Below, one piece after another: positions 29,811 through 61,069 of a DNA stretch of 64,000 bases. The stretch is from assembly GCA_951406725.2 (NCBI GenBank), contig OX597827.1:82894001-82958000 (forward strand). The letters are read 5' to 3'. The notes beneath the pieces were generated by a model, which was given only the letters and a program-made list of their open reading frames with translations, made no database searches and was not told where the DNA came from. The position numbers and the translations under genes were made by a program. The stretch's first letter is position 1, and the number at the start of each line of letters is the position of its first letter. Origin of the DNA: Octopus vulgaris (taxonomy: Eukaryota).

Positions 29811-29869
<59 letters not shown>

Positions 29870-30332
29870 CATACCTACACATACACACATACATACATAC
29901 AAATATACATATACATATATATATATACAATCCAATACAGGCCCATTCCCTAATTTTAATTTTATTATCTTCATTTATTACTTTTGTTATCTTTGATCGC
30001 TAAGGCTAAGAATCCTGGCAATAGCTGCTTGTCCATTTGTCTGTCTACTAGAAGGCAAGTACTCATTCCCGCACGCACACTCATTAGCACGTACATTCAC
30101 CCATTCGTACACTCATACACATACACGTACGCACGCGTTATATTCATACATACAAACATCTACATACGTTCACGTATATACACATACGTACTCGTACCTA
30201 CAGATTCGTGTCTACACTTTAGGAGGCTAGTCTATACATATACACCAATAAATATACATATATATATATATATATATATACCCGCATATACATACACACA
30301 CACACATATATACTCCTACATACAGATACATA

Positions 30333-33409: not shown

Positions 33410-33485
33410 TGGGCCTGTATTGGATTGTATATATATATATGTATATGTATATTTGTATGTATGTATGTGTGTATGTGTAGGTATG

Positions 33486-33552
<67 letters not shown>

Positions 33553-33941
33553 AGATATATGTGTATGTGCGTATGTGTGTGTAGATACGTATACATGTGT
33601 GTATAGGTATAAGTGAGAATCTCCTTATTTACCTATAACTCTATCCCCCCTTTTTTTATATATATATTTTTTATATATATATTTTATATATATATTTTTT
33701 TATATATTTTTTTATATATATTTTTTATATTTTTTATATTTTTTATATTTTTTATATTTTTTATATTTTTTATTTTTATTCTTTTATTTTATCTTTTTAT
33801 TTTTTTATTTTTTATTTTTTTATTTTTTTATTACCTTGACCACTCCCCCAAGTATGATATTTTGCGCTATGCCTACCCCCCAAAAAGTCCCCCACCACCA
33901 CTCCTCTAAATGTATAAATGCTAATACAATTCTTGTTAAAT

Positions 33942-33992
33942 AGCTTCCTGAAGATTTCTCTTGAATGAAACAGTACTAGTCCTGTAGAAGCT
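33942..33992 (+). ncRNA. Type I hammerhead ribozyme (inverted pLTR copy)
   Basis: Identical reverse complement of 29371-29421. Confidence 0.85.
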
Positions 33993-37959: not shown

Positions 37960-40900
37960 CTACCTCTTCATACTTCACCACCTCATCCCAGGTCTTCCTG
38001 GGTCTACCTCTTCATGCTTCACCACCTCATCCCAGGTCTTCCTGGGTCTACCTCTTCATGCTTCACCACCTCATCCCAGGTCTTCCTGGGTCTACCTCTT
38101 CATGCTTCACCACCTCATCCCAGGTCTTCCTGAGTCTATCTCTTCATGCTTCACCACCTCATCCCAGGTCTTCCTGGGTCTACCTCTTCATGCTTCACCA
38201 CCTCATCCCAGGTCTTCCTGGGTCTACCTCTTCATGCTTCACCACCTCATCGCAGGTCTTCCTGGGTCTACCTCTTCATGCTTCACCACCTCATCCCAGG
38301 TCTTCCTGAGTCTATCTCTTCATGCTTCACCACCTCATCCCAGGTCTTCCTGGGATACCTCTTCATGCTTCACCACCTCATCCCAGGTCTTCCTGGGTCT
38401 ACCTCTTCATGCTTCACCACCTCATCCCAGGTCTTCCTGGGTCTACCTCTTCATGCTTCACCACCTCATGCCAGGTCTTCCTGAGCCTATCTCTTCATGC
38501 TTCACCACCTCATCCCAGGTCTTCCTGGGTCTACCTCTTCATGCTTCACCACCTCATCCCAGGTCTTCCTGGGTCTACCTCTTCATGCTTCACCACCTCA
38601 TCCCAGGTCTTCCTCGGTCTATCTCTTCATGCTTCACCACCTTATCCCAGGTCTTCCTCGGTCTATCTCTTCATGCTTCACCACCTCATCCCAGGTCTTC
38701 CTGGGTCTACCTCTTCATGCTTCACCACCTCATCCCAGGAATTCCTGGGTCTATCTCTTCATGCTTCATCACCTCATCCCAGGTCTTCCTCGGTCTACCT
38801 CTTCATGCTTCACCACCTCATGCCAGGTCTTCCTGAGTCTATCTCTTCATGCTTCACCACCTCATCCCAGGTCTTCCTGGGTCTACCTCTTCATGCTTCA
38901 CCACCTCATCCCAGGAATTCCTGGGTCTATCTCTTCATGCTTCACCACCTCATGCCAGGTCTTCCTGAGTCTATCTCTTCATGCTTCACCACCTCATCCC
39001 AGGTCTTCCTGGGTCTACCTCTTCATGCTTCAGCACCTCATGCCAGGTCTTCCTGAGTCTATCTCTTCATGCTTCACCACCTCATCCCAGGTCTTCCTGG
39101 GTCTACCTCTTCATGCTTCACCACCTCATGCCAGGTCTTCCTGAGTCTATCTCTTCATGCTTCACCACCTCATCCCAGGTCTTCCTGGGTCTACCTCTTC
39201 ATGCTTCACCAACTCATCCCAGGAATTCCTGGGTCTACCTCTTCATGCTTCACCACCTCATGCCAGGTCTTCCTGAGTCTATCTCTTCATGCTTCACCAC
39301 CTCATCCCAGGTCTTCCTGGGTCTACCTCTTCATGCTTCACCACCTCATCCCAGGTCTTCCTGGGTCTACCTCTTCATGCTTCACCACCTCATCCCAGGT
39401 CTTCCTGGGTCTACCTCTTCATGCTTCACCACCTCATCCCAGGTCTTCCTGAGTCTATCTCTTCATGCTTCACCACCTCATCCCAGGTCTTCCTGGGTCT
39501 ACCTCTTCATGCTTCACCACCTCATGCCAGGTCTTCCTGAGTCTATCTCTTCATGCTTCACCACCTCATCCCAGGTCTTCCTGGGTCTACCTCTTCATGC
39601 TTCACCACCTCATCCCAGGAATTCCTGGGACTACCTCTTCATGCTTCACCACCTCATCCCAGGTCTTCCTGGGTCTACCTCTTCATGCTTCACCACCTCA
39701 TCCCAGGAATTCCTGGGTCTACCTCTTCATGCTTCACCACCTCATCCCAGGAATTCCTGGGTCTACCTCTTCATGCTTCACCACCTCATCCCAGGTCTTC
39801 CTGGGTCTACCTCTTCATGCTTCACCACCACATCCCAGGAATTCCTGGGTCTACCTCTTCATGCTTCACCACCTCATCCCAGGAATTCCTGGGTCTACCT
39901 ATTCATGCTTCACCACCTCATCCCAGGTCTTCCTGGGTCTACCTCTTCATGCTTCACCACCTCATCCCAGGAATTCCTGGGTCTACCTCTTCATGCTTCA
40001 CCACCTCATCCCAGGAATTCCTGGGTCTACCTCTTCATGCTTCACCACCTCATCCCAGGTCTTCCTGGGTCTATCTCTTCATGCTTCACCACCTCATCCC
40101 AGGTCTTCCTGGGTCTAACTCTTCATGCTTCACCACCTCATCCCAGGAATTCCTGGGTCTACCTCTTCATGCTTCACCACCTCATCCCAGGAATTCCTGG
40201 GTCTACCTATTCATGGTTCACCACCTCATCCCAGGAATTCCTGGGTCTACCTGTTCATGCTTCACCACCTCATCCCAGGAATTCCTGGGTCTACCTCTTC
40301 ATGCTTCACCACCTCATCCCAGGTCTTCCTGGGTCTACCTCTTCATGCTTCACCACCTCATCCCAGGTCTTCCTGGGTCTACCTCTTCATGCTTCACCAC
40401 CTCATCCCAGGTCTTCCTGGGTCTACCTCTTCATGCTTCACCACCTCATCCCAGGTCTTCCTGGGTCTACCTCTTCATGCTTCACCACCTCATCCAAGGA
40501 ATTCCTGGGTCTACCTCTTCATGCTTCACCACCTCATCCCAGGTCTTCCTGGGTCTACCTCTTCATGCTTCACCACCTCATCCCAGGTCTTCCTGGGTCT
40601 ACCTCTTCATGCTTCACCACCTCATCCAAGGAATTCCTGGGTCTACCTCTTCATGCTTCACCACCTCATCCCAGGAATTCCTGGGTCTACCTCTTCATGC
40701 TTCACCACCTCATCCCAGGTCTTCCTCGGTCTATCTCTTCATGCTTCACCACCTTATCCCAGGTCTTCCTCGGTCTATCTCTTCATGCTTCACCACCTCA
40801 TCCCAGGTCTTCCTGGGTCTACCTCTTCATGCTTCACCACCTCATCCCAGGAATTCCTGGGTCTATCTCTTCATGCTTCATCACCTCATCCCAGGTCTTC

Positions 40901-43900
40901 CTCGGTCTACCTCTTCATGCTTCACCACCTCATGCCAGGTCTTCCTGAGTCTATCTCTTCATGCTTCACCACCTCATCCCAGGTCTTCCTGGGTCTACCT
41001 CTTCATGCTTCACCACCTCATCCCAGGAATTCCTGGGTCTATCTCTTCATGCTTCACCACCTCATGCCAGGTCTTCCTGAGTCTATCTCTTCATGCTTCA
41101 CCACCTCATCCCAGGTCTTCCTGGGTCTACCTCTTCATGCTTCAGCACCTCATGCCAGGTCTTCCTGAGTCTATCTCTTCATGCTTCACCACCTCATCCC
41201 AGGTCTTCCTGGGTCTACCTCTTCATGCTTCACCACCTCATGCCAGGTCTTCCTGAGTCTATCTCTTCATGCTTCACCACCTCATCCCAGGTCTTCCTGG
41301 GTCTACCTCTTCATGCTTCACCAACTCATCCCAGGAATTCCTGGGTCTACCTCTTCATGCTTCACCACCTCATGCCAGGTCTTCCTGAGTCTATCTCTTC
41401 ATGCTTCACCACCTCATCCCAGGTCTTCCTGGGTCTACCTCTTCATGCTTCACCACCTCATCCCAGGTCTTCCTGGGTCTACCTCTTCATGCTTCACCAC
41501 CTCATCCCAGGTCTTCCTGGGTCTACCTCTTCATGCTTCACCACCTCATCCCAGGTCTTCCTGAGTCTATCTCTTCATGCTTCACCACCTCATCCCAGGT
41601 CTTCCTGGGTCTACCTCTTCATGCTTCACCACCTCATGCCAGGTCTTCCTGAGTCTATCTCTTCATGCTTCACCACCTCATCCCAGGTCTTCCTGGGTCT
41701 ACCTCTTCATGCTTCACCACCTCATCCCAGGAATTCCTGGGACTACCTCTTCATGCTTCACCACCTCATCCCAGGTCTTCCTGGGTCTACCTCTTCATGC
41801 TTCACCACCTCATCCCAGGAATTCCTGGGTCTACCTCTTCATGCTTCACCACCTCATCCCAGGAATTCCTGGGTCTACCTCTTCATGCTTCACCACCTCA
41901 TCCCAGGTCTTCCTGGGTCTACCTCTTCATGCTTCACCACCACATCCCAGGAATTCCTGGGTCTACCTCTTCATGCTTCACCACCTCATCCCAGGAATTC
42001 CTGGGTCTACCTATTCATGCTTCACCACCTCATCCCAGGAATTCCTGGGTCTACCTCTTCATGCTTCACCACCTCATCCCAGGAATTCCTGGGTCTACCT
42101 CTTCATGCTTCACCACCTCATCCCAGGAATTCCTGGGTCTACCTCTTCATGCTTCACCACCTCATCCCAGGTCTTCCTGGGTCTATCTCTTCATGCTTCA
42201 CCACCTCATCCCAGGTCTTCCTGGGTCTACCTCTTCATGCTTCACCACCACATCCCAGGAATTCCTGGGTCTACCTCTTCATGCTTCACCACCTCATCCC
42301 AGGAATTCCTGGGTCTACCTATTCATGCTTCACCACCTCATCCCAGGAATTCCTGGGTCTACCTGTTCATGCTTCACCACCTCATCCCAGGAATTCCTGG
42401 GTCTACCTCTTCATGCTTCACCACCTCATCCCAGGTCTTCCTGGGTCTACCTCTTCATGCTTCACCACCTCATCCCAGGTCTTCCTGGGTCTACCTCTTC
42501 ATGCTTCACCACCTCATCCCAGGTCTTCCTGGGTCTACCTCTTCATGCTTCACCACCTCATCCCAGGTCTTCCTGGGTCTACCTCTTCATGCTTCACCAC
42601 CTCATCCAAGGAATTCCTGGGTCTACCTCTTCATGCTTCACCACCTCATCCCAGGTCTTCCTGGGTCTACCTCTTCATGCTTCACCACCTCATCCCAGGT
42701 CTTCCTGGGTCTACCTCTTCATGCTTCACCACCTCATCCCAGGAATTCCTGGGTCTACCTCTTCATGCTTCACCACCTCATCCCAGGAATTCCTGGGTCT
42801 ACCTCTTCATGCTTCACCACCTCATCCCAGGAATTCCTGGGTCTACCTCTTCATGCTTCACCACCTCATCCCAGGTCTTCCTGGGTCTATCTCTTCATGC
42901 TTCACCACCTCATCCCAGGTCTTCCTGGGTCTACCTCTTCATGCTTCACCACCACATCCCAGGAATTCCTGGGTCTACCTCTTCATGCTTCACCACCTCA
43001 TCCCAGGAATTCCTGGGTCTACCTATTCATGCTTCACCACCTCATCCCAGGAATTCCTGGGTCTACCTGTTCATGCTTCACCACCTCATCCCAGGAATTC
43101 CTGGGTCTACCTCTTCATGCTTCACCACCTCATCCCAGGTCTTCCTGGGTCTACCTCTTCATGCTTCACCACCTCATCCCAGGTCTTCCTGGGTCTACCT
43201 CTTCATGCTTCACCACCTCATCCCAGGTCTTCCTGGGTCTACCTCTTCATGCTTCACCACCTCATCCCAGGTCTTCCTGGGTCTACCTCTTCATGCTTCA
43301 CCACCTCATCCAAGGAATTCCTGGGTCTACCTCTTCATGCTTCACCACCTCATCCCAGGTCTTCCTGGGTCTACCTCTTCATGCTTCACCACCTCATCCC
43401 AGGTCTTCCTGGGTCTACCTCTTCATGCTTCACCACCTCATCCAAGGAATTCCTGGGTCTACCTCTTCATGCTTCACCACCTCATCCCAGGAATTCCTGG
43501 GTCTACCTCTTCATGCTTCACCACCTCATCCCAGGTCTTCCTGGGTCTACCTCTTCATGCTTCACCACCTCATGCCAGGTCTTCCTGGGTCTACCTCTTC
43601 ATGCTTCACCACCTTATCCCAGGAATTCCTGGGTCTACCTCTTCATGCTTCACCACCTTATCCCAGGTCTTCCTGGGTCTACCTCTTCATGCTTCACCAC
43701 CTCATGCCAGGTCTTCCTGGGTCTACCTCTTCATGCTTCACCACCTTATCCCAGGAATTCCTGGGTCTACCTCTTCATGCTTCACCACCTTATCCCAGGT
43801 CTTCCTGGGTCTACCTCTTCATGCTTCACCACCTCATCCCAGGTCTTCCTGGGTCTACCTCTTCATGCTTCACCACCTTATCCCAGGTCTTCCTGGGTCT

Positions 43901-46900
43901 ACCTCTTCATGCTTCACCACCTTATCCCAGGTCTTCCTGGGTCTACCTCTTCATGCTTCACCACCTTATCCCAGGTCTTCCTGGGTCTACCTCTTCATGC
44001 TTCACCACCTCATCCCAGGTCTTCCTGGGTCTACCTCTTCATGCTTCACCACCTCATCCCAGGTCTTCCTGGGTCTACCTCTTCATGCTTCACCACCTTA
44101 TCCCAGGTCTTCCTGGGTCTACCTCTTCATGCTTCACCACCTTATCCCAGGTCTTCCTGGGTCTACCTCTTCATGCTTCACCACCTCATCCCAGGTCTTC
44201 CTGGGTCTACCTCTTCATGCTTCACCACCTCATCCCAGGTCTTCCTGAGTCTATCTCTTCATGCTTCACCACCTCATCCCAGGTCTTCCTGGGTCTACCT
44301 CTTCATGCTTCACCACCTCATCCCAGGTCTTCCTGGGTCTACCTCTTCATGCTTCACCACCTCATCGCAGGTCTTCCTGGGTCTACCTCTTCATGCTTCA
44401 CCACCTCATCCCAGGTCTTCCTGAGTCTATCTCTTCATGCTTCACCACCTCATCCCAGGTCTTCCTGGGATACCTCTTCATGCTTCACCACCTCATCCCA
44501 GGTCTTCCTGGGTCTACCTCTTCATGCTTCACCACCTCATCCCAGGTCTTCCTGGGTCTACCTCTTCATGCTTCACCACCTCATGCCAGGTCTTCCTGAG
44601 CCTATCTCTTCATGCTTCACCACCTCATCCCAGGTCTTCCTGGGTCTACCTCTTCATGCTTCACCACCTCATCCCAGGTCTTCCTGGGTCTACCTCTACA
44701 TGCTTCACCACCTCATCCCAGGTCTTCCTCGGTCTATCTCTTCATGCTTCACCACCTTATCCCAGGTCTTCCTCGGTCTATCTCTTCATGCTTCACCACC
44801 TCATCCCAGGTCTTCCTGGGTCTACCTCTTCATGCTTCACCACCTCATCCCAGGAATTCCTGGGTCTATCTCTTCATGCTTCATCACCTCATCCCAGGTC
44901 TTCCTCGGTCTACCTCTTCATGCTTCACCACCTCATGCCAGGTCTTCCTGAGTCTATCTCTTCATGCTTCACCACCTCATCCCAGGTCTTCCTGGGTCTA
45001 CCTCTTCATGCTTCACCACCTCATCCCAGGAATTCCTGGGTCTATCTCTTCATGCTTCACCACCTCATGCCAGGTCTTCCTGAGTCTATCTCTTCATGCT
45101 TCACCACCTCATCCCAGGTCTTCCTGGGTCTACCTCTTCATGCTTCAGCACCTCATGCCAGGTCTTCCTGAGTCTATCTCTTCATGCTTCACCACCTCAT
45201 CCCAGGTCTTCCTGGGTCTACCTCTTCATGCTTCACCACCTCATGCCAGGTCTTCCTGAGTCTATCTCTTCATGCTTCACCACCTCATCCCAGGTCTTCC
45301 TGGGTCTACCTCTTCATGCTTCACCAACTCATCCCAGGAATTCCTGGGTCTACCTCTTCATGCTTCACCACCTCATGCCAGGTCTTCCTGAGTCTATCTC
45401 TTCATGCTTCACCACCTCATCCCAGGTCTTCCTGGGTCTACCTCTTCATGCTTCACCACCTCATCCCAGGTCTTCCTGGGTCTACCTCTTCATGCTTCAC
45501 CACCTCATCCCAGGTCTTCCTGGGTCTACCTCTTCATGCTTCACCACCTCATCCCAGGTCTTCCTGAGTCTATCTCTTCATGCTTCACCACCTCATCCCA
45601 GGTCTTCCTGGGTCTACCTCTTCATGCTTCACCACCTCATGCCAGGTCTTCCTGAGTCTATCTCTTCATGCTTCACCACCTCATCCCAGGTCTTCCTGGG
45701 TCTACCTCTTCATGCTTCACCACCTCATCCCAGGAATTCCTGGGACTACCTCTTCATGCTTCACCACCTCATCCCAGGTCTTCCTGGGTCTACCTCTTCA
45801 TGCTTCACCACCTCATCCCAGGAATTCCTGGGTCTACCTCTTCATGCTTCACCACCTCATCCCAGGAATTCCTGGGTCTACCTCTTCATGCTTCACCACC
45901 TCATCCCAGGTCTTCCTGGGTCTACCTCTTCATGCTTCACCACCACATCCCAGGAATTCCTGGGTCTACCTCTTCATGCTTCACCACCTCATCCCAGGAA
46001 TTCCTGGGTCTACCTATTCATGCTTCACCACCTCATCCCAGGAATTCCTGGGTCTACCTCTTCATGCTTCACCACCTCATCCCAGGAATTCCTGGGTCTA
46101 CCTCTTCATGCTTCACCACCTCATCCCAGGAATTCCTGGGTCTACCTCTTCATGCTTCACCACCTCATCCCAGGTCTTCCTGGGTCTATCTCTTCATGCT
46201 TCACCACCTCATCCCAGGTCTTCCTGGGTCTACCTCTTCATGCTTCACCACCACATCCCAGGAATTCCTGGGTCTACCTCTTCATGCTTCACCACCTCAT
46301 CCCAGGAATTCCTGGGTCTACCTATTCATGCTTCACCACCTCATCCCAGGAATTCCTGGGTCTACCTGTTCATGCTTCACCACCTCATCCCAGGAATTCC
46401 TGGGTCTACCTCTTCATGCTTCACCACCTCATCCCAGGTCTTCCTGGGTCTACCTCTTCATGCTTCACCACCTCATCCCAGGTCTTCCTGGGTCTACCTC
46501 TTCATGCTTCACCACCTCATCCCAGGTCTTCCTGGGTCTACCTCTTCATGCTTCACCACCTCATCCCAGGTCTTCCTGGGTCTACCTCTTCATGCTTCAC
46601 CACCTCATCCAGGAATTCCTGGGTCTACCTCTTCATGCTTCACCACCTCATCCCAGGTCTTCCTGGGTCTACCTCTTCATGCTTCACCACCTCATCCCAG
46701 GTCTTCCTGGGTCTACCTCTTCATGCTTCACCACCTCATCCAAGGAATTCCTGGGTCTACCTCTTCATGCTTCACCACCTCATCCCAGGAATTCCTGGGT
46801 CTACCTCTTCATGCTTCACCACCTCATCCCAGGTCTTCCTGGGTCTACCTCTTCATGCTTCACCACCTCATGCCAGGTCTTCCTGGGTCTACCTCTTCAT

Positions 46901-49900
46901 GCTTCACCACCTTATCCCAGGAATTCCTGGGTCTACCTCTTCATGCTTCACCACCTTATCCCAGGTCTTCCTGGGTCTACCTCTTCATGCTTCACCACCT
47001 CATGCCAGGTCTTCCTGGGTCTACCTCTTCATGCTTCACCACCTTATCCCAGGAATTCCTGGGTCTACCTCTTCATGCTTCACCACCTTATCCCAGGTCT
47101 TCCTGGGTCTACCTCTTCATGCTTCACCACCTAATCCCAGGTCTTCCTGGGTCTACCTCTTCATGCTTCACCACCTTATCCCAGGTCTTCCTGGGTCTAC
47201 CTCTTCATGCTTCACCACCTTATCCCAGGTCTTCCTGGGTCTACCTCTTCATGCTTCACCACCTTATCCCAGGTCTTCCTGGGTCTACCTCTTCATGCTT
47301 CACCACCTCATCCCAGGTCTTCCTGGGTCTACCTCTTCATGCTTCACCACCTCATCCCAGGTCTTCCTGGGTCTACCTCTTCATGCTTCACCACCTTATC
47401 CCAGGTCTTCCTGGGTCTACCTCTTCATGCTTCACCACCTTATCCCAGGTCTTCCTGGGTCTACCTCTTCATGCTTCACCACCTCATCCCAGGTCTTCCT
47501 GGGTCTACCTCTTCATGCTTCACCACCTTATCCCAGGTCTTCCTGGGTCTACCTCTTCATGCTTCACCACCTCATCCCAGGTCTTCCTGGGTCTACCTCT
47601 TCATGCTTCACCACCTTATCCCAGGTCTTCCTGGGTCTACCTCTTCATGCTTCACCACCTCATCCCAGGTCTTCCTGGGTCTACCTCTTCATGCTTCACC
47701 ACCTTATCCCAGGTCTTCCTGGGTCTACCTCTTCATGCTTCACCACCTTATCCCAGGTCTTCCTGGGTCTACCTCTTCATGCTTCACCACCTCATCCCAG
47801 GTCTTCCTGGGTCTACCTCTTCATGCTTCACCACCTTATCCCAGGTCTTCCTGGGTCTACCTCTTCATGCTTCACCACCTCATCCCAGGTCTTCCTGGGT
47901 CTACCTCTTCATGCTTCACCACCTCATCCCAGGTCTTCCTGGGTCTACCTCTTCATGCTTCACCACCTTATCCCAGGTCTTCCTGGGTCTACCTCTTCAT
48001 GCTTCACCACCTCATCCCAGGTCTTCCTGGGTCTATCTCTTCATGCTTCACCACCTCATCCCAGGTCTTCCTGGGTCTACCTGTTCATGCTTCACCACCT
48101 CATCCCAGGTCTTCCTGGGTCTACCTCTTCATGCTTCACCACCTCATCCCAGGTCTTCCTGGGTCTACCTCTTCATGCTTCACCACCTCATCCCAGGTCT
48201 TCCTGGGTCTACCTCTTCATGCTTCACCACCTCATCCCAGGTCTTCCTGGGTCTACCTCTTCATGCTTCACCACCTCATCCCAGGTCTTCCTGGGTCTAC
48301 CTCTTCATGCTTCACCACCTCATCCCAACTCTTCCTGGGTCTACCTCTTCATGCTTCACCACCTCATCCCAGGTCTTCCTGGGTCTACCTCTTCATGCTT
48401 CACCACCTCATCCCAGGTCTTCCTGGGTCTACCTCTTCATGCTTCACCACCTCATCCCAGGTCTTCCTGGGTCTACCTCTTCATGCTTCACCACCTCATC
48501 CCAGGTCTTCCTGGGTCTACCTCTTCATGCTTCACCACCTCATCCCAGGTCTTCCTGGGTCTACCTCTTCATGCTTCACCACCTCATCCCAGGTCTTCCT
48601 GGGTCTACCTCTTCATGCTTCACCACCTCATCCCAGGTCTTCCTGGGTCTACCTCTTCATGCTTCACCACCTCATCCCAGGTCTTCCTGGGTCTACCTCT
48701 TCATGCTTCACCACCTCATCCCAGGTCTTCCTGGGTCTACCTCTTCATGCTTCACCACCTCATCCCAGGTCTTCCTGGGTCTACCTCTTCATGCTTCACC
48801 ACCTCATCCCAGGTCTTCCTGGGTCTACCTCTTCATGCTTCACCACCTCATCCCAGGTCTTCCTGGGTCTACCTCTTCATGCTTCACCACCTCATCCCAG
48901 GTCTTCCTGGGTCTACCTCTTCATGCTTCACCACCTCATCCCAGGTCTTCCTGAGTCTACCTCTTCATGCTTCACCACCTCATCCCAGGTCTTCCTGGGT
49001 CTACCTCTTCATGCTTCACCACCTCATCCCAGGTCTTCCTGGGTCTACCGCTTCATGCTTCACCACCTCATCCCAGGTCTTCCTGGGTCTACCTCTTCAT
49101 GCTTCACCACCTCATCCCAGGTCTTCCTGGGTCTACGTCTTCATGCTTCACCACCTCATCCCAGGTCTTCCTGGGTCTACCTCTTCATGCTTCACCACCT
49201 CATCCCAGGTCTTCCTGGGTCTACCTCTTCATGCTTCACCACCTCATCCCAGGTCTTCCTGGGTCTACCTCTTCATGCTTCACCACCTCATCCCAGGTCT
49301 TCCTGGGTCTACCTCTTCATGCTTCACCACCTCATCCCAGGTCTTCCTGGGTCTACCTCTTCATGCTTCACCACCTCATCCCAGGTCTTCCTGGGTCTAC
49401 CTCTTCATGCTTCACCACCTCATCCCAGGTCTTCCTGGGTCTACCTCTTCATGCTTCACCACCTCATCCCAGGTCTTCCTGGGTCTACCTCTTCATGCTT
49501 CACCACCTCATCCCAGGTCTTCCTGGGTCTACCTCTTCATGCTTCACCACCTCATCCCAGGTCTTCCTGGGTCTACCTCTTCATGCTTCACCACCTCATC
49601 CCAGGTCTTCCTGGGTCTACCTCTTCATGCTTCACCACCTCATCCCAGGTCTTCCTGGGTCTACCTCTTCATGCTTCACCACCTCATCCCAGGTCTTCCT
49701 GGGTCTACCTCTTCATGCTTCACCACCTCATCCCAGGTCTTCCTGGGTCTACCTCTTCATGCTTCACCACCTCATCCCAGGTCTTCCTGGGTCTACCTCT
49801 TCATGCTTCACCACCTCATCCCAGGTCTTCCTGGGTCTACCTCTTCATGCTTCACCACCTCATCCCAGGTCTTCCTGGGTCTACCTCTTCATGCTTCACC

Positions 49901-52515
49901 ACCTCATCCCAGGTCTTCCTGGGTCTACCTCTTCATGCTTCACCACCTCATCCCAGGTCTTCCTGGGTCTACCTCTTCATGCTTCACCACCTCATCCCAG
50001 GTCTTCCTGGGGCTACCTCTTCATGCTTCACCACCTCATCCCAGGTCTTCCTGGGTCTACCTCTTCATGCTTCACCACCTCATCCCAGGTCTTCCTGGGT
50101 CTACCTCTTCATGCTTCACCACCTCATGCCAGGTCTTCCTGGGTCTACCTCTTCATGCTTCACCACCTCATCCCAGGTCTTCCTGGGTCTACCTCTTCAT
50201 GCTTCACCACCTCATCCCAGGTCTTCCTGGGTCTACCTCTTCATGCTTCACCACCTCATCCCAGGTCTTCCTGGGTCTACCTCTTCATGCTTCCCCACCT
50301 CATCCCAGGTCTTCCTGGGTCTACCTCTTCATGCTTCACCACCTCATCCCAGGTCTTCCTGGGTCTACCTCTTCATGCTTCACCACCTCATCCCAGGTCT
50401 TCCTGGGTCTACCTCTTCATGCTTCACCACCTCATCCCAGGTCTTCCTGGGTCTACCTCTTCATGCTTCACCACCTCATCCGAGGTCTTCCTGGGTCTAC
50501 CTCTTCATGCTTCACCACCTCATCCCAGGTCTTCCTGGGTCTACCTCTTCATGCTTCACCACCTCATCCGAGGTCTTCCTGGGTCTACCTCTTCATGCTT
50601 CACCACCTCATGCCAGGTCTTCCTGGGTCTACCTCTTCATGCTTCACCACCTCATCCCAGGTCTTCCTGGGTCTACCTCTTCATGCTTCCCCACCTCATC
50701 CCAGGTCTTCCTGGGTCTACCTCTTCATGCTTCACCACCTCATCCCAGGTCTTCCTGGGTCTACCTCTTCATGCTTCACCACCTCATCCCAGGTCTTCCT
50801 GGCTCTACCTCTTCATGCTTCACCACCTCATCCCAGGTCTTCCTGGGTCTACCTCTTCATGCTTCACCACCTCATCCGAGGTCTTCCTGGGTCTACCTCT
50901 TCATGCTTCACCACCTCATCCCAGGTCTTCCTGGGTCTACCTCTTCATGCTTCACCACCTCATCCGAGGTCTTCCTGGGTCTACCTCTTCATGCTTCACC
51001 ACCTCATCCCAGGTCTTCCTGGGTCTACCTCTTCATGCTTCACCACCTCATCCGAGGTCTTCCTGGGTCTACCTCTTCATGCTTCACCACCTCATCCCAG
51101 GTCTTCCTGGGTCTACCTCTTCATGCTTCACCACCTCATCCCAGGTCTTCCTGGGTCTACCTCTTCATGCTTCACCACCACATCCCAGGTCTTCCTGGGT
51201 CTACCTCTTCATGCTTCACCACCTCATCCCAGGTCTTCCTGGGTCTACCTCTTCATGCTTCACCACCACATCCCAGGTCTTCCTGGGTCTACCTCTTCAT
51301 GCTTCACCACCTCATCCCAGGTCTTCCTGGGTCTACCTCTTCATGCTTCACCACCTCATGCCAGGTCTTCCTGGGTCTACCTCTTCATGCTTCACCACCT
51401 CATCCCAGGTCTTCCTGGGTCTACCTCTTCATGCTTCACCACCTCATCCCAGGTCTTCCTGGGTCTACCTCTTCATGCTTCACCACCTCATCCGAGGTCT
51501 TCCTGGGTCTACCTCTTCATGCTTCACCACCTCATCCCAGGTCTTCCTGGGTCTACCTCTTCATGCTTCACCACCTCATCCCAGGAATTCCTGGGTCTAC
51601 CTCTTCATGCTTCACCACCTCATCCCAGGTCTTCCTGGGTCTACCTCTTCATGCTTCACCACCTCATCCCAGGTCTTCCTGGGTCTACCTCTTCATGCTT
51701 CACCACCTCATCCCAGGTCTTCCTGGGTCTACCTCTTCATGCTTCACCACCTCATCCCAGGTCTTCCTTGGTCTACCTCTTCATGCTTCACCACCTCATC
51801 CCAGGTCTTCCTGGGTCTACCTCTTCATGCTTCACCACCTCATCCCAGGTCTTCCTGGGTCTACCTCTTCATGCTTCACCACCTCATCCCAGGTCTTCCT
51901 GGGTCTACCTCTTCATGCTTCACCACCTCATCCCAGGAATTCCTGGGTCTACCTCTTCATGCTTCACCACCACATCCCAGGTCTTCCTGGGTCTACCTCT
52001 TCATGCTTCACCACCTCATCCCAGGTCTTCCTGGGTCTACCTCTTCATGCTTCACCACCTCATCCCAGGTCTTCCTGGGTCTACCTCTTCATGCTTCACC
52101 ACCTCATCCCAGGTCTTCCTGGGTCTACCTCTTCATGCTTCACCACCTCATCCCAGGTCTTCCTGGGTCTACCTCTTCATGCTTCACCACCTCATCCCAG
52201 GTCTTCCTGGGTCTACCTCTTCATGCTTCACCACCTCATCCCAGGTCTTCCTGGGTCTACCTCTTCATGCTTCACCACCTCATCCCAGGAATTCCTGGGT
52301 CTACCTCTTCATGCTTCACCACCTCATCCCAGGTCTTCCTGGGTCTACCTCTTCATGCTTCACCACCTCATCCCAGGTCTTCCTGGGTCTACCTCTTCAT
52401 GCTTCACCACCTCATCCCAGGTCTTCCTGGGTCTACCTCTTCATGCTTCACCACCTCATCCCAGGTCTTCCAGGTTCCTGGGTCTACCTCTTCATGCTTC
52501 ACCACCTCATCCCAG
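37960..52515. repeat. 44-bp tandem satellite array, ~330 copies, RTE-LINE derived
   Basis: Consensus CTACCTCTTCATGCTTCACCACCTCATCCCAGGTCTTCCTGGGT; reverse complement encodes RGRPRKTWDEVVKH. Confidence 0.98.
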
Positions 52516-53182
52516 AAAGACCTTTGTTTCACCCATTTTTGGTGTAACAAAAATTCCAACCCTAAACACCAGGTGCGCGTATACATTGCTTTTACTCATA
52601 CATGATATTTACCAAATGAACTATGATGAAAGAATATGAGAATGATATAGTATATAGTTTTCTTTTGCAGGATTTCCTTGAGATATGTAATTTATTTTAA
52701 GGGTTACACAAGGGTAAAACGGTTCAGAAACACTGCTATAGAGATATACATGTGGACAATATTGTACGTTTGTAAAGATATTGTACAATATTGACAATAT
52801 TGTACGTTTGGCCGTATAGCCAAAAACGCATGTTATCCTGTAACCAATAGTATACCACAGTAACAACACATGTAGCCATGTTACCATGTGGCAAACCTAA
52901 GCAAAATAACATGTAGGAAGGATAAGTGAGATAATTTGCTTATAAATTAATGGAAGCTGAATAAGTAAATAAGAGTTAATAGACTTGTTTAATTTAAGAA
53001 ATTATTTGGTATGGGGTGGACACCTTAAGGAGGGACTTCAAATATCAGCCACTTAGATACTCTAGCACACACGCCCACACACACACACGTGCACACACAT
53101 ACACACACACACACACACGCACACACACACACACACACGTGCACACACAAAACATCAAACGTTAATTTGTTGACAATCAATA

Positions 53183-53188
53183 TTTATT
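53183..53188 (-). promoter_or_regulatory. Putative polyadenylation signal of the His-rich peptide gene
   Basis: AATAAA on the minus strand ~155 nt after the stop codon. Confidence 0.6.
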
Positions 53189-53340
53189 GAACTGTTGTAA
53201 TATCGGTTATAAAGAGGTGGAAATATGATTATCAGGAACACTGAAGTCTGTCTCTTTAACAATCTTATTTAATGTGTTGCCATTAAATATAACATTATTG
53301 GCTGATCTGGTCATCTTTCCAACATTATTAGCTGATCTGG

Positions 53341-53360
53341 TCAATTCGATGGTTGAGCTT
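53341..53360 (-). CDS. Exon 6 coding part (EAQPSN, stop)
   Basis: gtttatttcctttcAG|AAGCTCAACCATCGAATTGA. Confidence 0.8.
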
Positions 53361-54004
53361 CTGAAAGGAAATAAACAGACAACATGAGAAAAGGGAAAAA
53401 TTGGAAAGGATTAGAAAGAAATTAAATCAGGGGCTAATATTTAGGATTGATGGAACCCTGTGGACATGATAGCACTGTCCAAATTCTTGAGTAGACATTA
53501 TTGTATTATCTCCAAGTGAAAGAACACTGAGACACTCTCTCCACACGCTCACATCTGCAAAATGCATTTACACTGTCAACATCGACTCACTGTGTTTATT
53601 TATTTAATATGGTAGCTTCTCTTCCTGTCCCTTTTCTTTTCCTTTAAACACACACACACTAACACACATTCACACACACACATATATATACACACATTCA
53701 CACATACTAACATGCATTCACACACACACACGTATTTATAAAATATGGTTCCCTTACCTCCTTGATGGTGTGACTCATCTGAAAATATTTAAAGATTCAT
53801 TAATTAAAATTCTTTACCAATTATGACATTGGAAAATCACAAAATCCAAACTTTGCTATTTTGTAAATTTGTGTTTGAGTTGCATAATAGAGGTTTTATC
53901 TCTAATTCATATTTTATACTGTGAAATTTGATTTAATACTAAATCTAATTTTTCCCTGTAAGTTTGGAGCCATACTCCCTAATATTATTATATATATATA
54001 TATG

Positions 54005-54037
<33 letters not shown>

Positions 54038-55322
54038 ATCTATGTTTATATTTATGGTTAACAGTTTTTCTTTTACTCGTGTCTCATTGACTACTCAACT
54101 GTGTCCAAGTTTTGTGTTTTTTCATTTTAGATAATTTTCTTCTTCTTGGATTCTTTTTACCTGTTTTGAACAAAAGAGTTCCTAATTTCGCATTTAATGT
54201 TTCTTGATTTTCAGAGTCTCATTCTCAAGAATTCAATATGTTTGGCATCCGTGTTGTTTCTATAACATTGGTTGAATCCCAGTAGAGTTCCCCACAACAA
54301 ACAAATCAACATGCGACTGCTGAGGTATGGAGCTAAGGGTCAAAAGATCTTTGGCAGGAAACTCTATATGAAGGCAAAGTGTGGCTGTGTGGTAAGATGC
54401 TTTCTTCCCAGCCACACGGTCCTTGGTTCAATTCCACTGCCTGGCACCTTGGGCAGGTGTCTTCTACTATAGCCCCAGTCTGACTAAAAGCTTGGATTTG
54501 GCAGACGGAAACTGAAAGAAATCCATTGTATGTATGTGTTTGCGTGTGTGTGTGTGTGTGTGTATGTGTGGTGTGTGTGTGTGTGTGTGTGTCCGCCGAG
54601 GTTGACTTTGCCTTTCATCCTTTTGAGGTCGATAAATTAAGTACCAGTTGCGAACTGGGATTGATTTAATCGACTGGCCCCCTCCCCCAAAATTTTGGGC
54701 CTTGTGCCTAGAGTAGAAAAGTATATATATGCATATGTGTATACATATGTATATACACACTCATGTACATAGATATTTTGATCGCTTGATGTATCCCTGG
54801 CCAGTCTCCATCTGTGACCCTGGCCCTGCCACCACCACCCTGCCACCCCAGCATGGGTTCTGGTTTCTCAGGCATGTGCTTGAATTACTGTCTCTGCTAG
54901 AAATAGCAGCTAGATCTCCTTCAAATCTACTATCTTGAATAAGCAAAGAAGGGTACATGGAATAATGTAGCTCTTGTCATACTCCTAAAATGTTGGGAAG
55001 GTCACAGCTGGAACCTTATTGATCCAGGGTGACCTTGATTATCTTTGCCCTAGGGTTAAACAGCAACAATATTAATACACTGAGGTGTTCCGTAAAAGAT
55101 AGGACAGGTAAACTAGCTTATGTCAGTTGTGAGGGGTGTATAAAGAAAAAAACGATGTATAAAGTATTGAGGGGTGTATAAAAGAGTGACAGGTGTAGGA
55201 AGATTATACTCACGATCGTGATCATGGTGATGCTGATGGTTTCCATGGTTACAATTTCCTGAAATTAAAGAATACAATAACACTGTCTCAGAAGATCATC
55301 ATTTTTATATTTATCATTCAAC

Positions 55323-55375
<53 letters not shown>

Positions 55376-55395
55376 CATACATGCATATAATAATA

Positions 55396-55435
<40 letters not shown>

Positions 55436-55785
55436 TGTGTACAGTGCTCAGGTGCACTACAACTCATCTAAAGTGTATATATAATCAGGTGTAGTTTCGG
55501 TGGATTTCGGAAAGCATGAGGGCCTTAAAGGATGCAGTGTCATGGCAGTCAACAACTGACACAGGCAGTTTATTCCATGCTTCAGCAACTCTGAGCGTGA
55601 AAAAATGTTTCCGAAAGTCATGGGAGCTGTGTTGTTTTCTGACTTTGTAGGCATGTCCACGTGTGTTGGACACATGGAGATCAAACACGATTAGAGGTTA
55701 TGTTAACCTCATAACTGATAATGATTGATTTGTTGTTAATAATAAATATTTATCAACTTCACAATCTCCATTTTCTTTTTCCTCC

Positions 55786-55824
<39 letters not shown>

Positions 55825-57338
55825 TAGAAGAAATGAGGTACTCAGAAATCTGGATGGTTTTATATTTACAGATATTTATTAGTATGTTACATGTTCTTAT
55901 AAATCATATATCATATATTAGAGCTTTTGTCCATTCTAGTGGGAAGACCCCACTCCTTACATGCTTTTCAGGTTTCAGTAAAACACAGAACCAATCCATG
56001 ACCAATGGAATTCTGGCTTTGTTGACCAAAATGACCAATTAACATTGTAAAGGTATAAAGTAAGAGGACCAAATGGACCCCTATTACCTGTGGTTTACAG
56101 ACAATTTCAGAGCTACTTAACCACCTGAAGATAACTGCTAGGGTTCAGTGAACTAGTTGCTAGGGGTCTGTTCAGGTGGTTGCTAGGGGTTTATTCAACT
56201 GGTTGCTGGAGCACAAAGATAAATGTCTTACCTTCGTGTTGATGGTGATCATGATGGGTGTGTCCATCATCTGGAACTGGTGAAACAAATGTAGAATATT
56301 TTTAATAAGAGAGGAAACAATAGTGTGTGTATGTGTGTGTGTGAATGTGCGTGTGTGTGTGAATGTGCGTGTGTGTGTGAATGTGCGTGTGTGTGTGAAT
56401 GTGCGTGTGTGTGTGAATGTGCGTGTGTGTGCATGCATATCTATGTATGAACATGTGTGTATGTGTATGAATGTATGTGTGTGAGAATGTGTGTGTGAAC
56501 ATGCGTGTGTGTGAATATGTGTGTGCATACGTGTGTATGTGTATGAATGTGTGTGTGTGTGTTTGTGAGTGTGTGTGTGTATGTGAATATGCATGTGAAT
56601 GTGTTTATGTGTGTGTGTGTGAATGTGTGTGTGCATGCATATATGTGTATGAATGTATGTGTGTCAGAATGTGCGTTGAACGTGTGTGTGTGAATGTGTG
56701 TGTGCATGCGTGTGTATGTGTATGAATGAGTGTGTGTGTTTGTGAGTGAGTGTGTGTGTATGTGAATATGTGTGCGAATGTGTTTGTGTGTATGTGAGTG
56801 TGTGTGCAAGAATATGTGTGTGCATGCGCACGTGTGTGTATGAATGTGTGTGTGTGTGTGTGTGTGTGCACACACCCATAAACCCCTAATATTGACCTAA
56901 GCATCACCCTAATGTTAGTCAGAAGGGAGAGGTCTGCTGAGAAGACATTCAAGTTTGGAAAGTGTAAGGAATATGACATTGGAATGATTATGCATCATCT
57001 TGGATTTCCCATTTCCATGGCAACGGGTCAGTGAGACAAACAGACAGACAAATATAAGCAGAGACAGGAAGACACAGAGTGACGTAGACAAACTGATAGG
57101 GATGTGTGTGTGTATAAGTATAGGTATGTTTTTTACTTGTTTCAGTCATTTGACTGTGGCCATGCTGGAGCACCGACTTTTGTCAAGCAAATCAACCCCA
57201 GGACTTATTCTTTGTAAGCCTAGTACTTATTCTATTGGTCTCTTTTGCTGAACTGCTAAGTTACAGGGACATAAACACACCAGCATCAGTTGTCAAACGA
57301 TGTTGGGGGGGACAAACACAGACATACAAACACACACA

Positions 57339-57382
<44 letters not shown>

Positions 57383-57545
57383 TACAACAGGCTTCTTTCA
57401 GTTTCTGTCTACCAAACCCACTCACAAGGCTTTGGCCAGCCTGAGGCTATAGTAGAAGACATTTGCCCAAGGTGCCACACAGTGGGACTGAACCCGGATC
57501 AATGTTGTTGGTAAGCAAACTACTTAACACACAGCCACTCCTGCG

Positions 57546-57613
<68 letters not shown>

Positions 57614-57631
57614 CATAAATATATGCACATG

Positions 57632-57674
<43 letters not shown>

Positions 57675-58134
57675 ATTATCATTAAAATTATAACTTAGGG
57701 TATCTACAAGATACCACCATGCTGAAAATAGCAGCCAGGATCTGACTCTAAAACCACCTTAAGTGTTCATATAGTAAGTGTTCCTTGTGCTATATGAACA
57801 CTTAAGGTGGTTTTAGAGTCAGATCCTGGCTGCTATTTTCAGCATGGCGGTATCTCGTAGTTATAATTTTAATAATAATTATTACCTTTGAAGGTTTTTA
57901 TTTCCATGCTGGCCACTTGATAAGATCGTTATTTAATTTAAATTAACGATCTTATCCTTATTTATATATATATATATAACAATGGAACAAAAACGCAATA
58001 GAGGACAATAAAACATTCGGACAGCCAGATGATACAACGGCAGACAAGAGAAACAAGAATTAGAAGGACTGGCAAAAAAAGACAGCTCATTCTTGGCTTT
58101 CTCTCCTCAGTCAAGTTCCAGAAGTCACGACCAT

Positions 58135-58165
<31 letters not shown>

Positions 58166-58422
58166 ATATATATTTGGGGATCACCTTCGCTCTCCTGTGT
58201 GACTCTTCTGTCCGGTAGTTGCCATGATAGATCGTTAGCCACTACACACATTTTTTTCTCTCCTGTTTCTCTCCTTGTTTCTTTCTGTGTTCCTTTCTGT
58301 AGAAGAGCGTAGGCTCGAAATATAAAAGACTTTTTCAATTCCTGAGCGTTAAACTAATACATCTGTTTGTTGTCTACACCACCTGTCTTCATCATTTGTT
58401 TCTTTCGTGAATTCTCCCCCCT

Positions 58423-58470
<48 letters not shown>

Positions 58471-58845
58471 ACATATATATATCATCATCATCATTTAACG
58501 TCCGTTTTCCATGCTAGCATGGGTTGGATGGTTCGACCAGGGTCTGGTAAGCCATGGAGGCTACACCAGGCTCCAGTCTGATTTGGCAGTGTTTCTACAG
58601 CTGGATGTTCTTCCTAACGCCAACCACTCCGTGAGTGTAGTGGGTGTCTTTTACGTGCCACCGGCACAGGAGCCAGCGCAGGCTGGCAAATTGCGATGAT
58701 CGGTTGGTGCTTTTAGGTGCCACCGACATGGATGCCAGTCAGGTGATGCTAGTATATATATATATATATATATGTATATGTATATGTATTTATTTATGTA
58801 TATGTATATAATGAACTTCTTGTATAAAGTGCTCAGGTGCACTAC

Positions 58846-58886
<41 letters not shown>

Positions 58887-59445
58887 CATGATTACATCTA
58901 AAAGTTGTACTTACGAGGACCAGACTGAACTGTAAAAAGAATAAAAAAGAAAAGGTAAATAAAAATTAACAACAACAACAAAAACGACAGCCACAACCAT
59001 AGGGTCAGAAATTAGGGTGCAGGGGTTGCAAGTGCACTCCCTAAATTTTGCTGGGTGGTGGGCATGGCAATGAAAGTGCTTCAAACATCCTAGGTTAGAC
59101 CTAGATTTGAACCCCTAAGCAAATTTCATTCCTGCACATATAGCCACACAACAGTATTTCTAGCATTAGAAGAAAGTCATAGATTGAAGGGAAGGGTTTC
59201 ACTGATTATTTGAAACCCCTAAGACACCACTGGTACTTTATTCCATCGACTCCCTAGAAAGATGAAAGCAATATTGTCCTCAGCAGAATTTGAACTTGTC
59301 TCAGCCTCAAACACTTCTGCTAATCCAACACTCAGACAAGAACAACAACGACATTTCTTTATTTTTGCCAGAAGGGCAATGGATGAGGGGACATTACCAT
59401 AACAAATTGCAAACAATTTTAGGTTCATCACCATCACCATCATTG

Positions 59446-60376: not shown

Positions 60377-61019
60377 TTTGTGCTGGTTTAGTCATGTGAT
60401 GTGTATGGATGTAGACAGTTGCGTGCAGAAGTGTTGATCACTTAAAGTGGATGGAATTTGTAGAAGAGGGAGACCCAGGAGGACAGGAGGTGAAGTATTG
60501 AAGGCTGATCTCAAAACACTGAGCCTGACGAAGGAGATGACTAAGGACTGAGCAGCTTACTTTACTCAAAAAGACCCACCCACCACAGCAGGGTGCCACA
60601 TGAAAAACACATACTGGTACCATATATAAAGTGCCCAGCACACTTTGCAGGGTGGTTGCTATTAGGAAGGGCACTCAGCCATAGAAACAATGCCAGAACA
60701 GACAATGGTGTGGCCCCTAGCCTTACCAGCACTGGTCAAATCATCTGACCATGCTAGTATGGGTTAAACGATGATATATATATATAACTTAACCATTCAA
60801 TAAATCGAGATCAATAAATAATATATGAAACATTCAGAGTGAGATGAACAAGATTGAATAAAACATATGAAGGCAGTGCCCCAGTATGGGCTTAGCCTAA
60901 TGACTGAAGCAGTAAATTTAAACTTGAGATGAAATAAAGTTTGAGGTGTTAAGGCTCTTCTTACCTCCGACAATCAGGGCAAAAGCCACAAGGAACACAA
61001 GAGCAGCTGTTAGTCTCAT
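53341..61019 (-). CDS. Six-exon gene for a secreted histidine-rich peptide, 66 aa: [66 protein letters not shown]
   Basis: join(61019-60965, 58929-58915, 56276-56232, 55258-55214, 53778-53758, 53360-53341) = 201 nt, open throughout. All introns are GT(A/G)AG...pyrimidine-rich-CAG and phase 1; N-terminus is a signal peptide. Confidence 0.85.
53758..53778 (-). CDS. Exon 5, 21-nt microexon (HESHHQG)
   Basis: aaatattttcAG|ATGAGTCACACCATCAAGGAG|GTAAGG. Confidence 0.85.
54372..54722 (+). mobile_element. SINE family A 5' part fused to SINE family B 3' part (intronic)
   Basis: gtgtggctgtgtggtaag...ggttcaattccactgcctggcaccttgggcagg...(TG)n, then ccgccgaggttgactttgcctttcatcc. Confidence 0.8.
55214..55258 (-). 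CDS. Exon 4, 45 nt ([15 protein letters not shown])
   Basis: tctttaatttcAG|GAAATTGT...CACGATC|GTGAGT. Confidence 0.85.
55388..55690 (-). mobile_element. CR1-clade LINE 3' fragment with (TTA)n tail (intronic)
   Basis: [11 protein letters not shown]...[22 protein letters not shown]....SFK, the CR1 ORF2 C-terminal motif. Confidence 0.85.
56232..56276 (-). CDS. Exon 3, 45 nt ([15 protein letters not shown])
   Basis: tttgtttcaccAG|TTCCAGATGATGG...CACGAAG|GTAAGA; alternative in-frame acceptor 6 nt further in. Confidence 0.85.
57132..57548 (-). mobile_element. tRNA-derived SINE family A, full length (intronic)
   Basis: Minus strand AGGCGCAGGAGTGGCTGTGTG...GGGTTCAGTCCC (B-box), CTTGGGCAA core, internal (TA)n, tail cagtcaaatgactgaaacaagtaaaa. 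Confidence 0.9.
57673..57880. repeat. Near-perfect ~70-90-bp-arm inverted repeat inside (TA)n
   Basis: catgctgaaaatagcagccaggatctgactctaaaaccaccttaagtgttcatatag / ctatatgaacacttaaggtggttttagagtcagatcctggctgctattttcagcatg. Confidence 0.9.
58482..58750 (-). mobile_element. RTE-tail repeat (intronic)
   Basis: catcatttaacgtccgttttccatgctagcatgggttggatgg... Confidence 0.8.
58915..58929 (-). CDS. Exon 2, 15-nt microexon (VQSGP)
   Basis: ttttcttttttattctttttacAG|TTCAGTCTGGTCCTC|GTAAGT; supplies the probable signal-peptidase site VQS/GP. Confidence 0.8.
59581..59925 (+). mobile_element. R4/Dong-like LINE 3' end inserted in (TAA)n
   Basis: [43 protein letters not shown]....[17 protein letters not shown]; (TAA)n on both sides. 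Confidence 0.8.
59926..60137 (-). mobile_element. SINE family B
   Basis: ccccgaaaggatgaaaggcaaagtcgacctcagtggaatttgaacc. Confidence 0.8.
60378..60775 (+). mobile_element. RTE LINE 3' fragment (ORF C-terminus and 3' UTR)
   Basis: [56 protein letters not shown] followed by the RTE-tail sequence. Confidence 0.8.
60965..61019 (-). CDS. Exon 1 coding part (signal peptide [18 protein letters not shown])
   Basis: ATG at 61019; donor GAG|GTAAGA. Confidence 0.85.
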
Positions 61020-61069
61020 TCTAGCTGTTGCTCTCTTCTCAATAATACCAATTCCATAGAGAAGGCACC

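What the first reader, a model, noticed from the sequence alone, without database searches (positions are those of the whole stretch)
53758..58929. All internal exons are symmetric phase-1 cassettes: potential combinatorial peptide diversity
Seen: every intron is phase 1 and every internal exon is a multiple of 3 nt (15, 45, 45, 21), so any subset can be skipped in frame. Exon 3 also has tandem in-frame acceptors (CAG TTCCAG, 6 nt apart). Established: schistosome micro-exon genes use this architecture to diversify secreted proteins by exon skipping. Inference: isoforms could tune His number and include or drop the single Cys (exon 4). The two 45-nt His exons may come from exon duplication.
Basis: partly seen in the sequence, partly recalled or inferred. 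Interest (0 to 1): 0.75.

Follow-up and report, generated by a model that had tools for sequence, protein, structure and literature searches.

The report
Hidden octopus histidine-rich secreted peptide gene
A small six-exon gene, likely from an octopus, has tiny exons that all keep the reading frame and likely makes a short secreted metal-binding peptide rich in histidine; the RNA assemblies checked show its last three exons joined in one form only, so mix-and-match exon skipping is possible but not seen.

Summary
A single-copy minus-strand gene has six exons and five GT-AG introns, all phase 1; internal exons are 15, 45, 45 and 21 nt; exon 3 has a second in-frame AG 6 nt in; the one Cys is in exon 4. 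The full form encodes 66 aa: a predicted signal peptide plus a 45-48 aa acidic peptide with 15 His, 8 Asp/Glu, no Lys/Arg and an HExxH motif. It is transcribed: 3 of 4 laid RNA assemblies (three organism labels) join exon 4-5-6, one with a poly(A) tail. Junctions among exons 1-4 and the second acceptor were not tested, and contigs drop rare forms. Exon 3/4 similarity (23/45) is no more than composition gives (p 0.14). It is not a schistosome MEG (6 exons, single copy). Phase-1 introns are known to be enriched in secreted-protein genes. Best reading: a mostly constitutive orphan metal-chelating secreted peptide, found in no protein search (all weak).

The parts
60965..61019 (-). Exon 1, coding part: ATG plus hydrophobic signal-peptide core (18 codons + 1 nt), phase-1 donor
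   Evidence: mean hydropathy 3.3 over 12 residues; donor 7/9 to consensus. Single copy in genome. Splicing to e2 not seen directly.
61020..61066 (-). Inferred 5' UTR (about 47 nt if the X2 contig carries all exons)
   Evidence: Inference from the 207 loose letters of X2's 364-nt contig minus 160 nt of e4+e3+e2+e1; other models give 53-107 nt.
58915..58929 (-). Exon 2, 15 nt, phase 1-1; likely carries the signal-peptidase site
   Evidence: strong acceptor (pyrimidine 0.9, no AG for >78 nt), donor GTAAGT. Cleavage site inferred from the (-3,-1) rule, not run through a predictor.
56232..56276 (-). Exon 3, 45 nt, phase 1-1, 6 His; second in-frame acceptor at 56270 (39-nt form: 64 aa, 16 His)
   Evidence: First AG has an AG-free zone >78 nt, the second only 4 nt; use of the second is untested.
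55214..55258 (-). Exon 4, 45 nt, phase 1-1, 6 His and the single Cys; its last base starts the His of the HExxH motif
   Evidence: its 3' 30 nt are joined to exon 5 in contigs of X2, X10, X16 (table 7).
53758..53778 (-). Exon 5, 21 nt, phase 1-1
   Evidence: Included in 3 of 3 spliced contigs (tables 5 and 8).
53341..53360 (-). Exon 6, coding part: 6 codons and TGA
   Evidence: acceptor confirmed by joint 53360-53758.
53166..53340 (-). 3' UTR (175 nt), AATAAA at 53188-53183, poly(A) site at 53166
   Evidence: X10 contig ends in 18 untemplated T (plus strand) at 53166 (table 7). Single copy.

Best explanation
The stretch is a single-copy, spliced and polyadenylated six-exon gene whose main product is likely one 66-residue precursor, predicted to be secreted as a 45-48 residue acidic, histidine-rich peptide that likely chelates Zn, Cu or Ni outside the cell. 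Shown: exon structure and phases (sequence), e4-e5-e6 splicing and poly(A) (RNA contigs), composition (15 His, 8 Asp/Glu, 0 Lys/Arg, 1 Cys, HExxH, seven HxH). Inferred: splicing of e1-e4, secretion, cleavage within or just before exon 2, disorder, metal binding through His/Asp/Cys, possible Cys-linked dimers. The uniform phase 1 most likely records how the gene was built: a phase-1 intron after the signal peptide admits only 1-1 exons, so later gained or duplicated exons are symmetric whether or not they are ever skipped. Likely role: metal buffering or metal withholding in a secretion.
For:: joint 53360-53758 in X2, X10, X16 (depth 45.8, 18.9, 3.4); loose end = exon 4 in all three; bin depths at the start of exon 6 (24.5, 10.1, 1.83) equal one contig's depth x 15/28, so no second contig was laid there; X2's contig runs unbroken 207 nt upstream of exon 5, enough for all exons plus a 47-nt UTR ending just short of the CA repeat, while an exon-3-skipped form would have to run about 30 nt into that repeat. 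All five donors match the consensus at 7-8 of 9 places. Composition and charge (pI 5.9, about -8 at pH 7.4). HExxH is called the canonical Zn-binding motif of histatin 5 (PMC7559477, passages). Phase-1 introns are enriched near signal-peptide cleavage sites and throughout signal-peptide genes, and 1-1 shuffling dominates in animals (PMC1626468, PMC7259759, passages).
Against: Only contigs, no raw reads; contigs drop rare variants and junction paths may be pruned (assembler behaviour recalled). Junctions e1-e2, e2-e3, e3-e4 were never seen. X10 and X16 contigs stop 61 and 73 nt upstream of exon 5 and only 30 of those letters are shown, so what lies beyond exon 4 in them is unknown (61 is also close to e4+e2). 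7 loose ends and 33 pieces were not shown. X4 gave no cover of the exons. No homologue, tissue or protein evidence was found, so function rests on composition alone. RNA status of X2 and X10 is the tool's guess (their spliced joint and poly(A) support it).
Confidence: 0.6

Rival explanations
1. MEG-like combinatorial skipping: exons 2-5 are skipped in many combinations, giving a pool of peptides with 0-16 His, with or without the Cys and the HExxH motif.
For: 16 of 16 subsets stay in frame without a stop; exons of 15-45 nt lie in the 6-81 nt range given for MEGs (bioRxiv 2023.06.21.545858); signal peptide; second acceptor in exon 3; an earlier unchecked note describes another micro-exon gene in this genome.
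Against: No skip joint in 3 of 3 covering assemblies; same e4-e5-e6 order under three organism labels; only 4 internal exons against 10-20 in MEGs; single copy; exon 2 likely holds the cleavage site.
Confidence: 0.12
2. One dominant form plus one or two minor or tissue-specific variants (6-nt acceptor shift in exon 3, or skipping of exon 2 or 3), largely splicing noise tolerated because the frame is kept.
For: Short exons and a tandem AG often give minor forms (general knowledge, recalled); e5 has the weakest pyrimidine tract (0.55); upstream junctions untested.
Against: No such form seen; first AG of exon 3 has a long AG-free zone and would be met first.
Confidence: 0.35
3. The peptide is a structural or adhesive additive (His-metal cross-links in cuticle, sucker, beak, mucus or egg coat) rather than a soluble metal buffer.
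For: His-rich secreted proteins serve as structural material in squid beak (PMC9068888, passages); single Cys could cross-link.
Against: Very short, acidic, no Tyr/Lys and no chitin-binding or hydrophobic repeats after the signal peptide; beak proteins form a 10-gene cluster in squid and were not identified in O. bimaculoides. Tissue unknown.
Confidence: 0.2
4. The peptide is a pH- or metal-dependent antimicrobial peptide like histatin.
For: Small, secreted, His-rich, HExxH; net charge turns positive at pH 5.5 (+3.7).
Against: No Lys/Arg, net about -8 at pH 7.4-8; no amphipathic segment; no Xaa-Xaa-His at either predicted N-terminus. The Pfam Penaeidin hit (E 0.02, 16 bits, cut-off 25) covers only the signal peptide.
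Confidence: 0.15

Closest known systems
Schistosome micro-exon genes (MEGs)
   Same: Signal peptide followed by short symmetric exons in large introns; short secreted product with no known domain (bioRxiv 10.1101/2023.06.21.545858, first third of text and passages; PMC4350168, passages).
   Different: 6 exons against 10-20; single copy against 35 genes; no isoform pool seen; only 18% of the coding sequence lies in internal exons of 36 nt or less (63% in exons of 45 nt or less); MEGs are described as restricted to flatworms; His-rich acidic composition.
Histatins (HTN1/HTN3)
   Same: Small secreted His-rich peptide with an HExxH Zn-binding motif (PMC7559477, passages).
   Different: Histatins are cationic and histatin 5 has an N-terminal ATCUN site; this peptide is acidic with no Lys/Arg and no ATCUN at the predicted N-termini; no homology. 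A functional analogue at most.
Secreted-protein genes built from 1-1 exons after a signal-peptide exon
   Same: Phase-1 intron at the end of the signal peptide, then 1-1 exons (PMC1626468, PMC7259759, passages).
   Different: Here the 1-1 exons code 5-15 residue low-complexity pieces rather than folded modules.
Squid histidine-rich beak proteins
   Same: Cephalopod, secreted, His-rich (PMC9068888, passages).
   Different: Those form a 10-gene cluster in squid and were not identified in O. bimaculoides; this gene is single copy, tiny and acidic. No sequence comparison was made.
Helicobacter Hpn-type His-rich metal stores (recalled, from no call)
   Same: About 60 residues, His-rich with few Cys, metal chelation without a fold.
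   Different: Bacterial, cytoplasmic, no signal peptide or introns; unrelated.

Membership tests
Schistosome-type micro-exon gene | N-terminal signal peptide | tested here: met
   Exon 1: Arg at 2, 12-residue core of mean hydropathy 3.3. No dedicated predictor available.
Schistosome-type micro-exon gene | Most of the coding region in very small symmetric exons | tested here: inconclusive
   4 of 4 internal exons symmetric; 126/201 nt in exons of 45 nt or less, but 36/201 in exons of 36 nt or less. The 36-nt limit is recalled from DeMarco 2010, which was not held; the 6-81 nt range is met.
Schistosome-type micro-exon gene | 10-20 short exons | tested here: not met
   6 exons, 4 internal against 10-20. 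A further exon between e1 and e4 cannot be fully excluded, but the His-exon scan found none.
Schistosome-type micro-exon gene | Pool of isoforms from exon skipping | tested here: inconclusive
Schistosome-type micro-exon gene | Duplicated multigene family | tested here: not met
   One genomic match each for exon 1 DNA, exon 6/UTR DNA and the exon 1, 3 and 4 peptides; pattern search gave 4 hits: e3, e4 and 2 microsatellites; no paralogue in 100 kb either side. Diverged paralogues could be missed.
Schistosome-type micro-exon gene | Accelerated coding evolution | tested here: inconclusive
   No listed difference in e5 or coding e6 and none in the 30 shown letters of e4 across three organism labels; 3 differences in the 3' UTR. 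Too little sequence, relatives too close.
Histatins | Small secreted His-rich peptide with HExxH | tested here: met
   15 His in 45-48 aa; one HExxH across the e4/e5 junction.
Histatins | Cationic | tested here: not met
   0 Lys/Arg, 8 Asp/Glu, pI 5.9.
Histatins | N-terminal ATCUN (Xaa-Xaa-His) | tested here: not met
   No His at position 3 after either predicted cleavage site in the full form; cleavage sites are inferred.
Histatins | Metal binding and antimicrobial activity shown | not testable with these tools
   Needs bench assay.
Squid histidine-rich beak proteins | Gene cluster expressed in buccal mass; sequence homology | tested here: inconclusive
   Single copy here; tissue not given for the runs; no direct sequence comparison.

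The most novel reading that the evidence does not exclude
An octopus has independently evolved a micro-exon 'metal dial': tissue- or stress-regulated skipping of exons 2-5 and the exon-3 acceptor shift set the number of His (0-16), switch the single Cys on or off, and make or break the HExxH site, whose first His forms only when exon 5 follows an exon ending in C (exon 4 or 2). It would be a free-living, non-parasitic counterpart of schistosome MEG logic used to tune metal binding, in a gene missing from the protein collections searched.
Probability: 0.12. Interest if true: 0.65.

Novelty: new member of a known kind. Interest (0 to 1): 0.33.

Why it matters
The gene is real, expressed and apparently missing from public protein sets, an example of small secreted peptides that annotation misses because of 15-45 nt exons. 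An acidic His-rich secreted peptide is a testable candidate for metal handling in an animal that depends on copper haemocyanin (general knowledge). The architecture alone does not show diversification; it would matter much more if regulated skipping were found.

Tried and rejected
Alternative last exon at acceptor 53554 (42 aa, weak tract): rejected, RNA joins exon 5 to 53360 and no contig covers 53374-53569. Protein searches, each with a single exon plus flanking sequence because the spliced protein could not be used as a query, so all are weak: the search for homologous proteins with exon 1 (near: no candidate; longer: 0 of 51 candidates at E<=10) and exon 4 (no candidate); HMMER over 1.84 billion representatives with exon 4 (0 hits at E<=0.001); Pfam on exons 1, 3, 4 (nothing above cut-off). 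They do not prove absence. Metagenome pattern scan: 0. Exon duplication: e3/e4 23 of 45 identical, p 0.14 against codon shuffles; e5 against e3 or e4 p 0.42 and 0.38: not shown. One search listed 24 runs, 20 holding part of the exon 6 region; only 4 of 24 were laid; unlaid small shares and the 4 zero-share runs are not used as evidence of expression or tissue restriction. X4 had a 0.19 share yet no cover of the exons when laid; unexplained (the tool leaves some records out). Folding and atlas searches were not run (short, low-complexity peptide; only single exons could be given). Literature: 'micro-exon'+'octopus' 0 papers; histidine-rich+octopus+secreted+signal peptide 8, histidine-rich+octopus vulgaris+transcriptome 6, histidine-rich glycoprotein+octopus 5: by search listing none describes this gene; their supplements were not examined and could list it. 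A search for the exon phases of histatin genes gave 0 and 3 listed papers, not read.
Full report
What was checked. The window lies on contig C14 of a 2.80-Gb genome in 227 contigs. The organism is taken to be an octopus from genome size, repeat content and earlier unchecked notes of this scan; no call names it.

Gene structure. On the minus strand there are six coding exons: 61019-60965, 58929-58915, 56276-56232, 55258-55214, 53778-53758 and 53360-53341. The five introns (2035, 2638, 973, 1435, 397 nt) all begin GT and end CAG and all are phase 1. Internal exons are 15, 45, 45 and 21 nt. All 16 of 16 subsets of the internal exons translate without an internal stop. Exon 3 has a second in-frame AG 6 nt in; using it gives 64 aa and 16 His instead of 66 aa and 15 His. 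The single Cys is in exon 4.

Expression. One search listed 24 runs for the exon 6 region; 4 of them, from four organism labels and four studies, were laid on 53150-53980. In 3 of 4 (X2, X10, X16) a contig joins 53360 to 53758 (CT..AC on the plus strand, 397 nt skipped) and continues from 53778 into 30 shown letters that equal the 3' end of exon 4. X10 ends in a poly(A) tail at 53166, 17 nt past an AATAAA. X4 did not cover the exons. The gene is therefore transcribed and spliced, and the last exon is the short one, not the 42-aa candidate at 53554.

Is anything skipped? In each of the three runs the depth in the bin at the start of exon 6 equals a single contig's depth times 15/28 (24.5, 10.1, 1.83), only one joint is listed, and all three contigs pass through exon 5 and past the 45 nt of exon 4 (207, 61 and 73 loose letters). 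A contig broken by exon-3 skipping, the 6-nt acceptor shift or exon-2 skipping would be expected to stop near 45, 84 or 90; none does. X2's 207 letters fit all exons plus a 47-nt 5' UTR; models without exon 3 would push the 5' end about 30 nt or more into the upstream CA repeat, while a model without exon 2 (62-nt UTR) is not excluded. Against this reading: these are contigs, which drop rare variants; only 30 loose letters are shown, so the junctions among exons 1-4 were never seen; 7 loose ends and 33 pieces were not listed. So exon 5 and exon 4 skipping are not major in these samples; the rest is open.

Is the architecture more than chance? With assumed phase-1 frequencies of 0.30-0.55 (illustrative, from no call) five phase-1 introns have probability 0.002-0.05. 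Phase-1 introns are reported as over-represented near signal-peptide cleavage sites and as the commonest phase in signal-peptide genes, and 1-1 shuffling as dominant in animals (PMC1626468 and PMC7259759, passages read). The introns are also not independent if exons arose by duplication or insertion. Symmetry is thus expected from history and does not by itself imply skipping. The duplication of the two 45-nt exons is plausible but not shown: 23 of 45 identical, p 0.14 against codon shuffles, and the flanking introns share only microsatellite.

The product. Exon 1 codes a hydrophobic core (mean hydropathy 3.3); by the (-3,-1) rule cleavage is after residue 18 or 21, so exon 2 likely holds or borders the site (inference). 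The mature 45-48 aa peptide is about one-third His, has 8 Asp/Glu, no Lys/Arg, no dibasic or N-glycosylation site, pI 5.9, seven HxH, five HH and one HExxH formed across the exon 4/5 junction. HExxH is the canonical Zn site of histatin 5 (PMC7559477, passages), but histatins are cationic. The best-supported mechanism is an unfolded secreted chelator of Zn, Cu or Ni; structural or antimicrobial roles are rivals. All function is inferred from composition.

Relatives. The gene is single copy by DNA, by peptide and by a degenerate His-exon pattern (4 hits, being exons 3 and 4 and two microsatellites); a scan of 264 kb around it found no convincing second signal-exon plus His-exon set. No protein relative was found, but each query was one exon with flanking sequence, so these searches are weak. 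Four paper searches (listings only) showed no description of it; supplements were not examined.

Comparison. It resembles schistosome MEGs in plan (signal peptide, small symmetric exons) but MEGs have 10-20 exons, 35 genes and at least 87 proteins mainly from alternative splicing (bioRxiv 10.1101/2023.06.21.545858, first third and passages) and are described as restricted to flatworms (PMC4350168, passages). It is not filed as a MEG, a histatin or a squid beak protein (PMC9068888, passages). An earlier unchecked note (e1-8666857) reports a many-exon micro-exon gene elsewhere in this genome; it is a lead that such designs occur here, not support for skipping in this gene.

Verdict. Observation confirmed; gene real and expressed; combinatorial skipping permitted but not seen where it could be tested. 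New member of a known kind (small secreted His-rich peptide on a 1-1 exon plan), interest 0.33. The boldest reading left open, regulated skipping that tunes metal binding, has probability about 0.12 and would deserve about 0.65.

Noticed in passing
window 37959-52515: 14.5-kb minisatellite, 44-bp unit, 331 copies, 96% matches, starting about 650 bp past the gene's poly(A) site. Of 140 exact genome matches to a 40-letter piece, the 100 listed all lie in this array, so it looks locus-specific.
   Followed up: partly
window 37959-37765 (-): A 65-aa GIY-YIG-like frame (Pfam E 0.034, below cut-off) starts exactly at the end of the minisatellite; likely a remnant of a Penelope-like retroelement from which the array may have grown (inference).
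   Followed up: partly
window 33298-32322 (-): Two overlapping frames (114 and 222 aa) that by eye resemble the end of a Penelope-like element; no Pfam hit above cut-off. By eye it is flanked by a long inverted repeat (about 29400-29940 and 33430-33990).
   Followed up: partly
window 53330: All three RNA contigs read G where the window has A (plus strand), in the 3' UTR; T>C on the transcript, so an allele or assembly difference rather than A-to-I editing.
   Followed up: no
window 53581-53799: Run X2 also has a low-depth (3.4 against 45.8) contig that, by its length and the bin depths, runs unspliced through exon 5: pre-mRNA or DNA.
   Followed up: partly
window 53870-53980: A repeat in intron 4 with very high summed contig depth in RNA runs X2 and X4 (up to 2442): an abundant dispersed element.
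   Followed up: no
L006 (G000:C10, around 91274857): A CAT/CAC microsatellite that translates to a long His run; a decoy for His-rich exon searches, no splice sites seen.
   Followed up: yes
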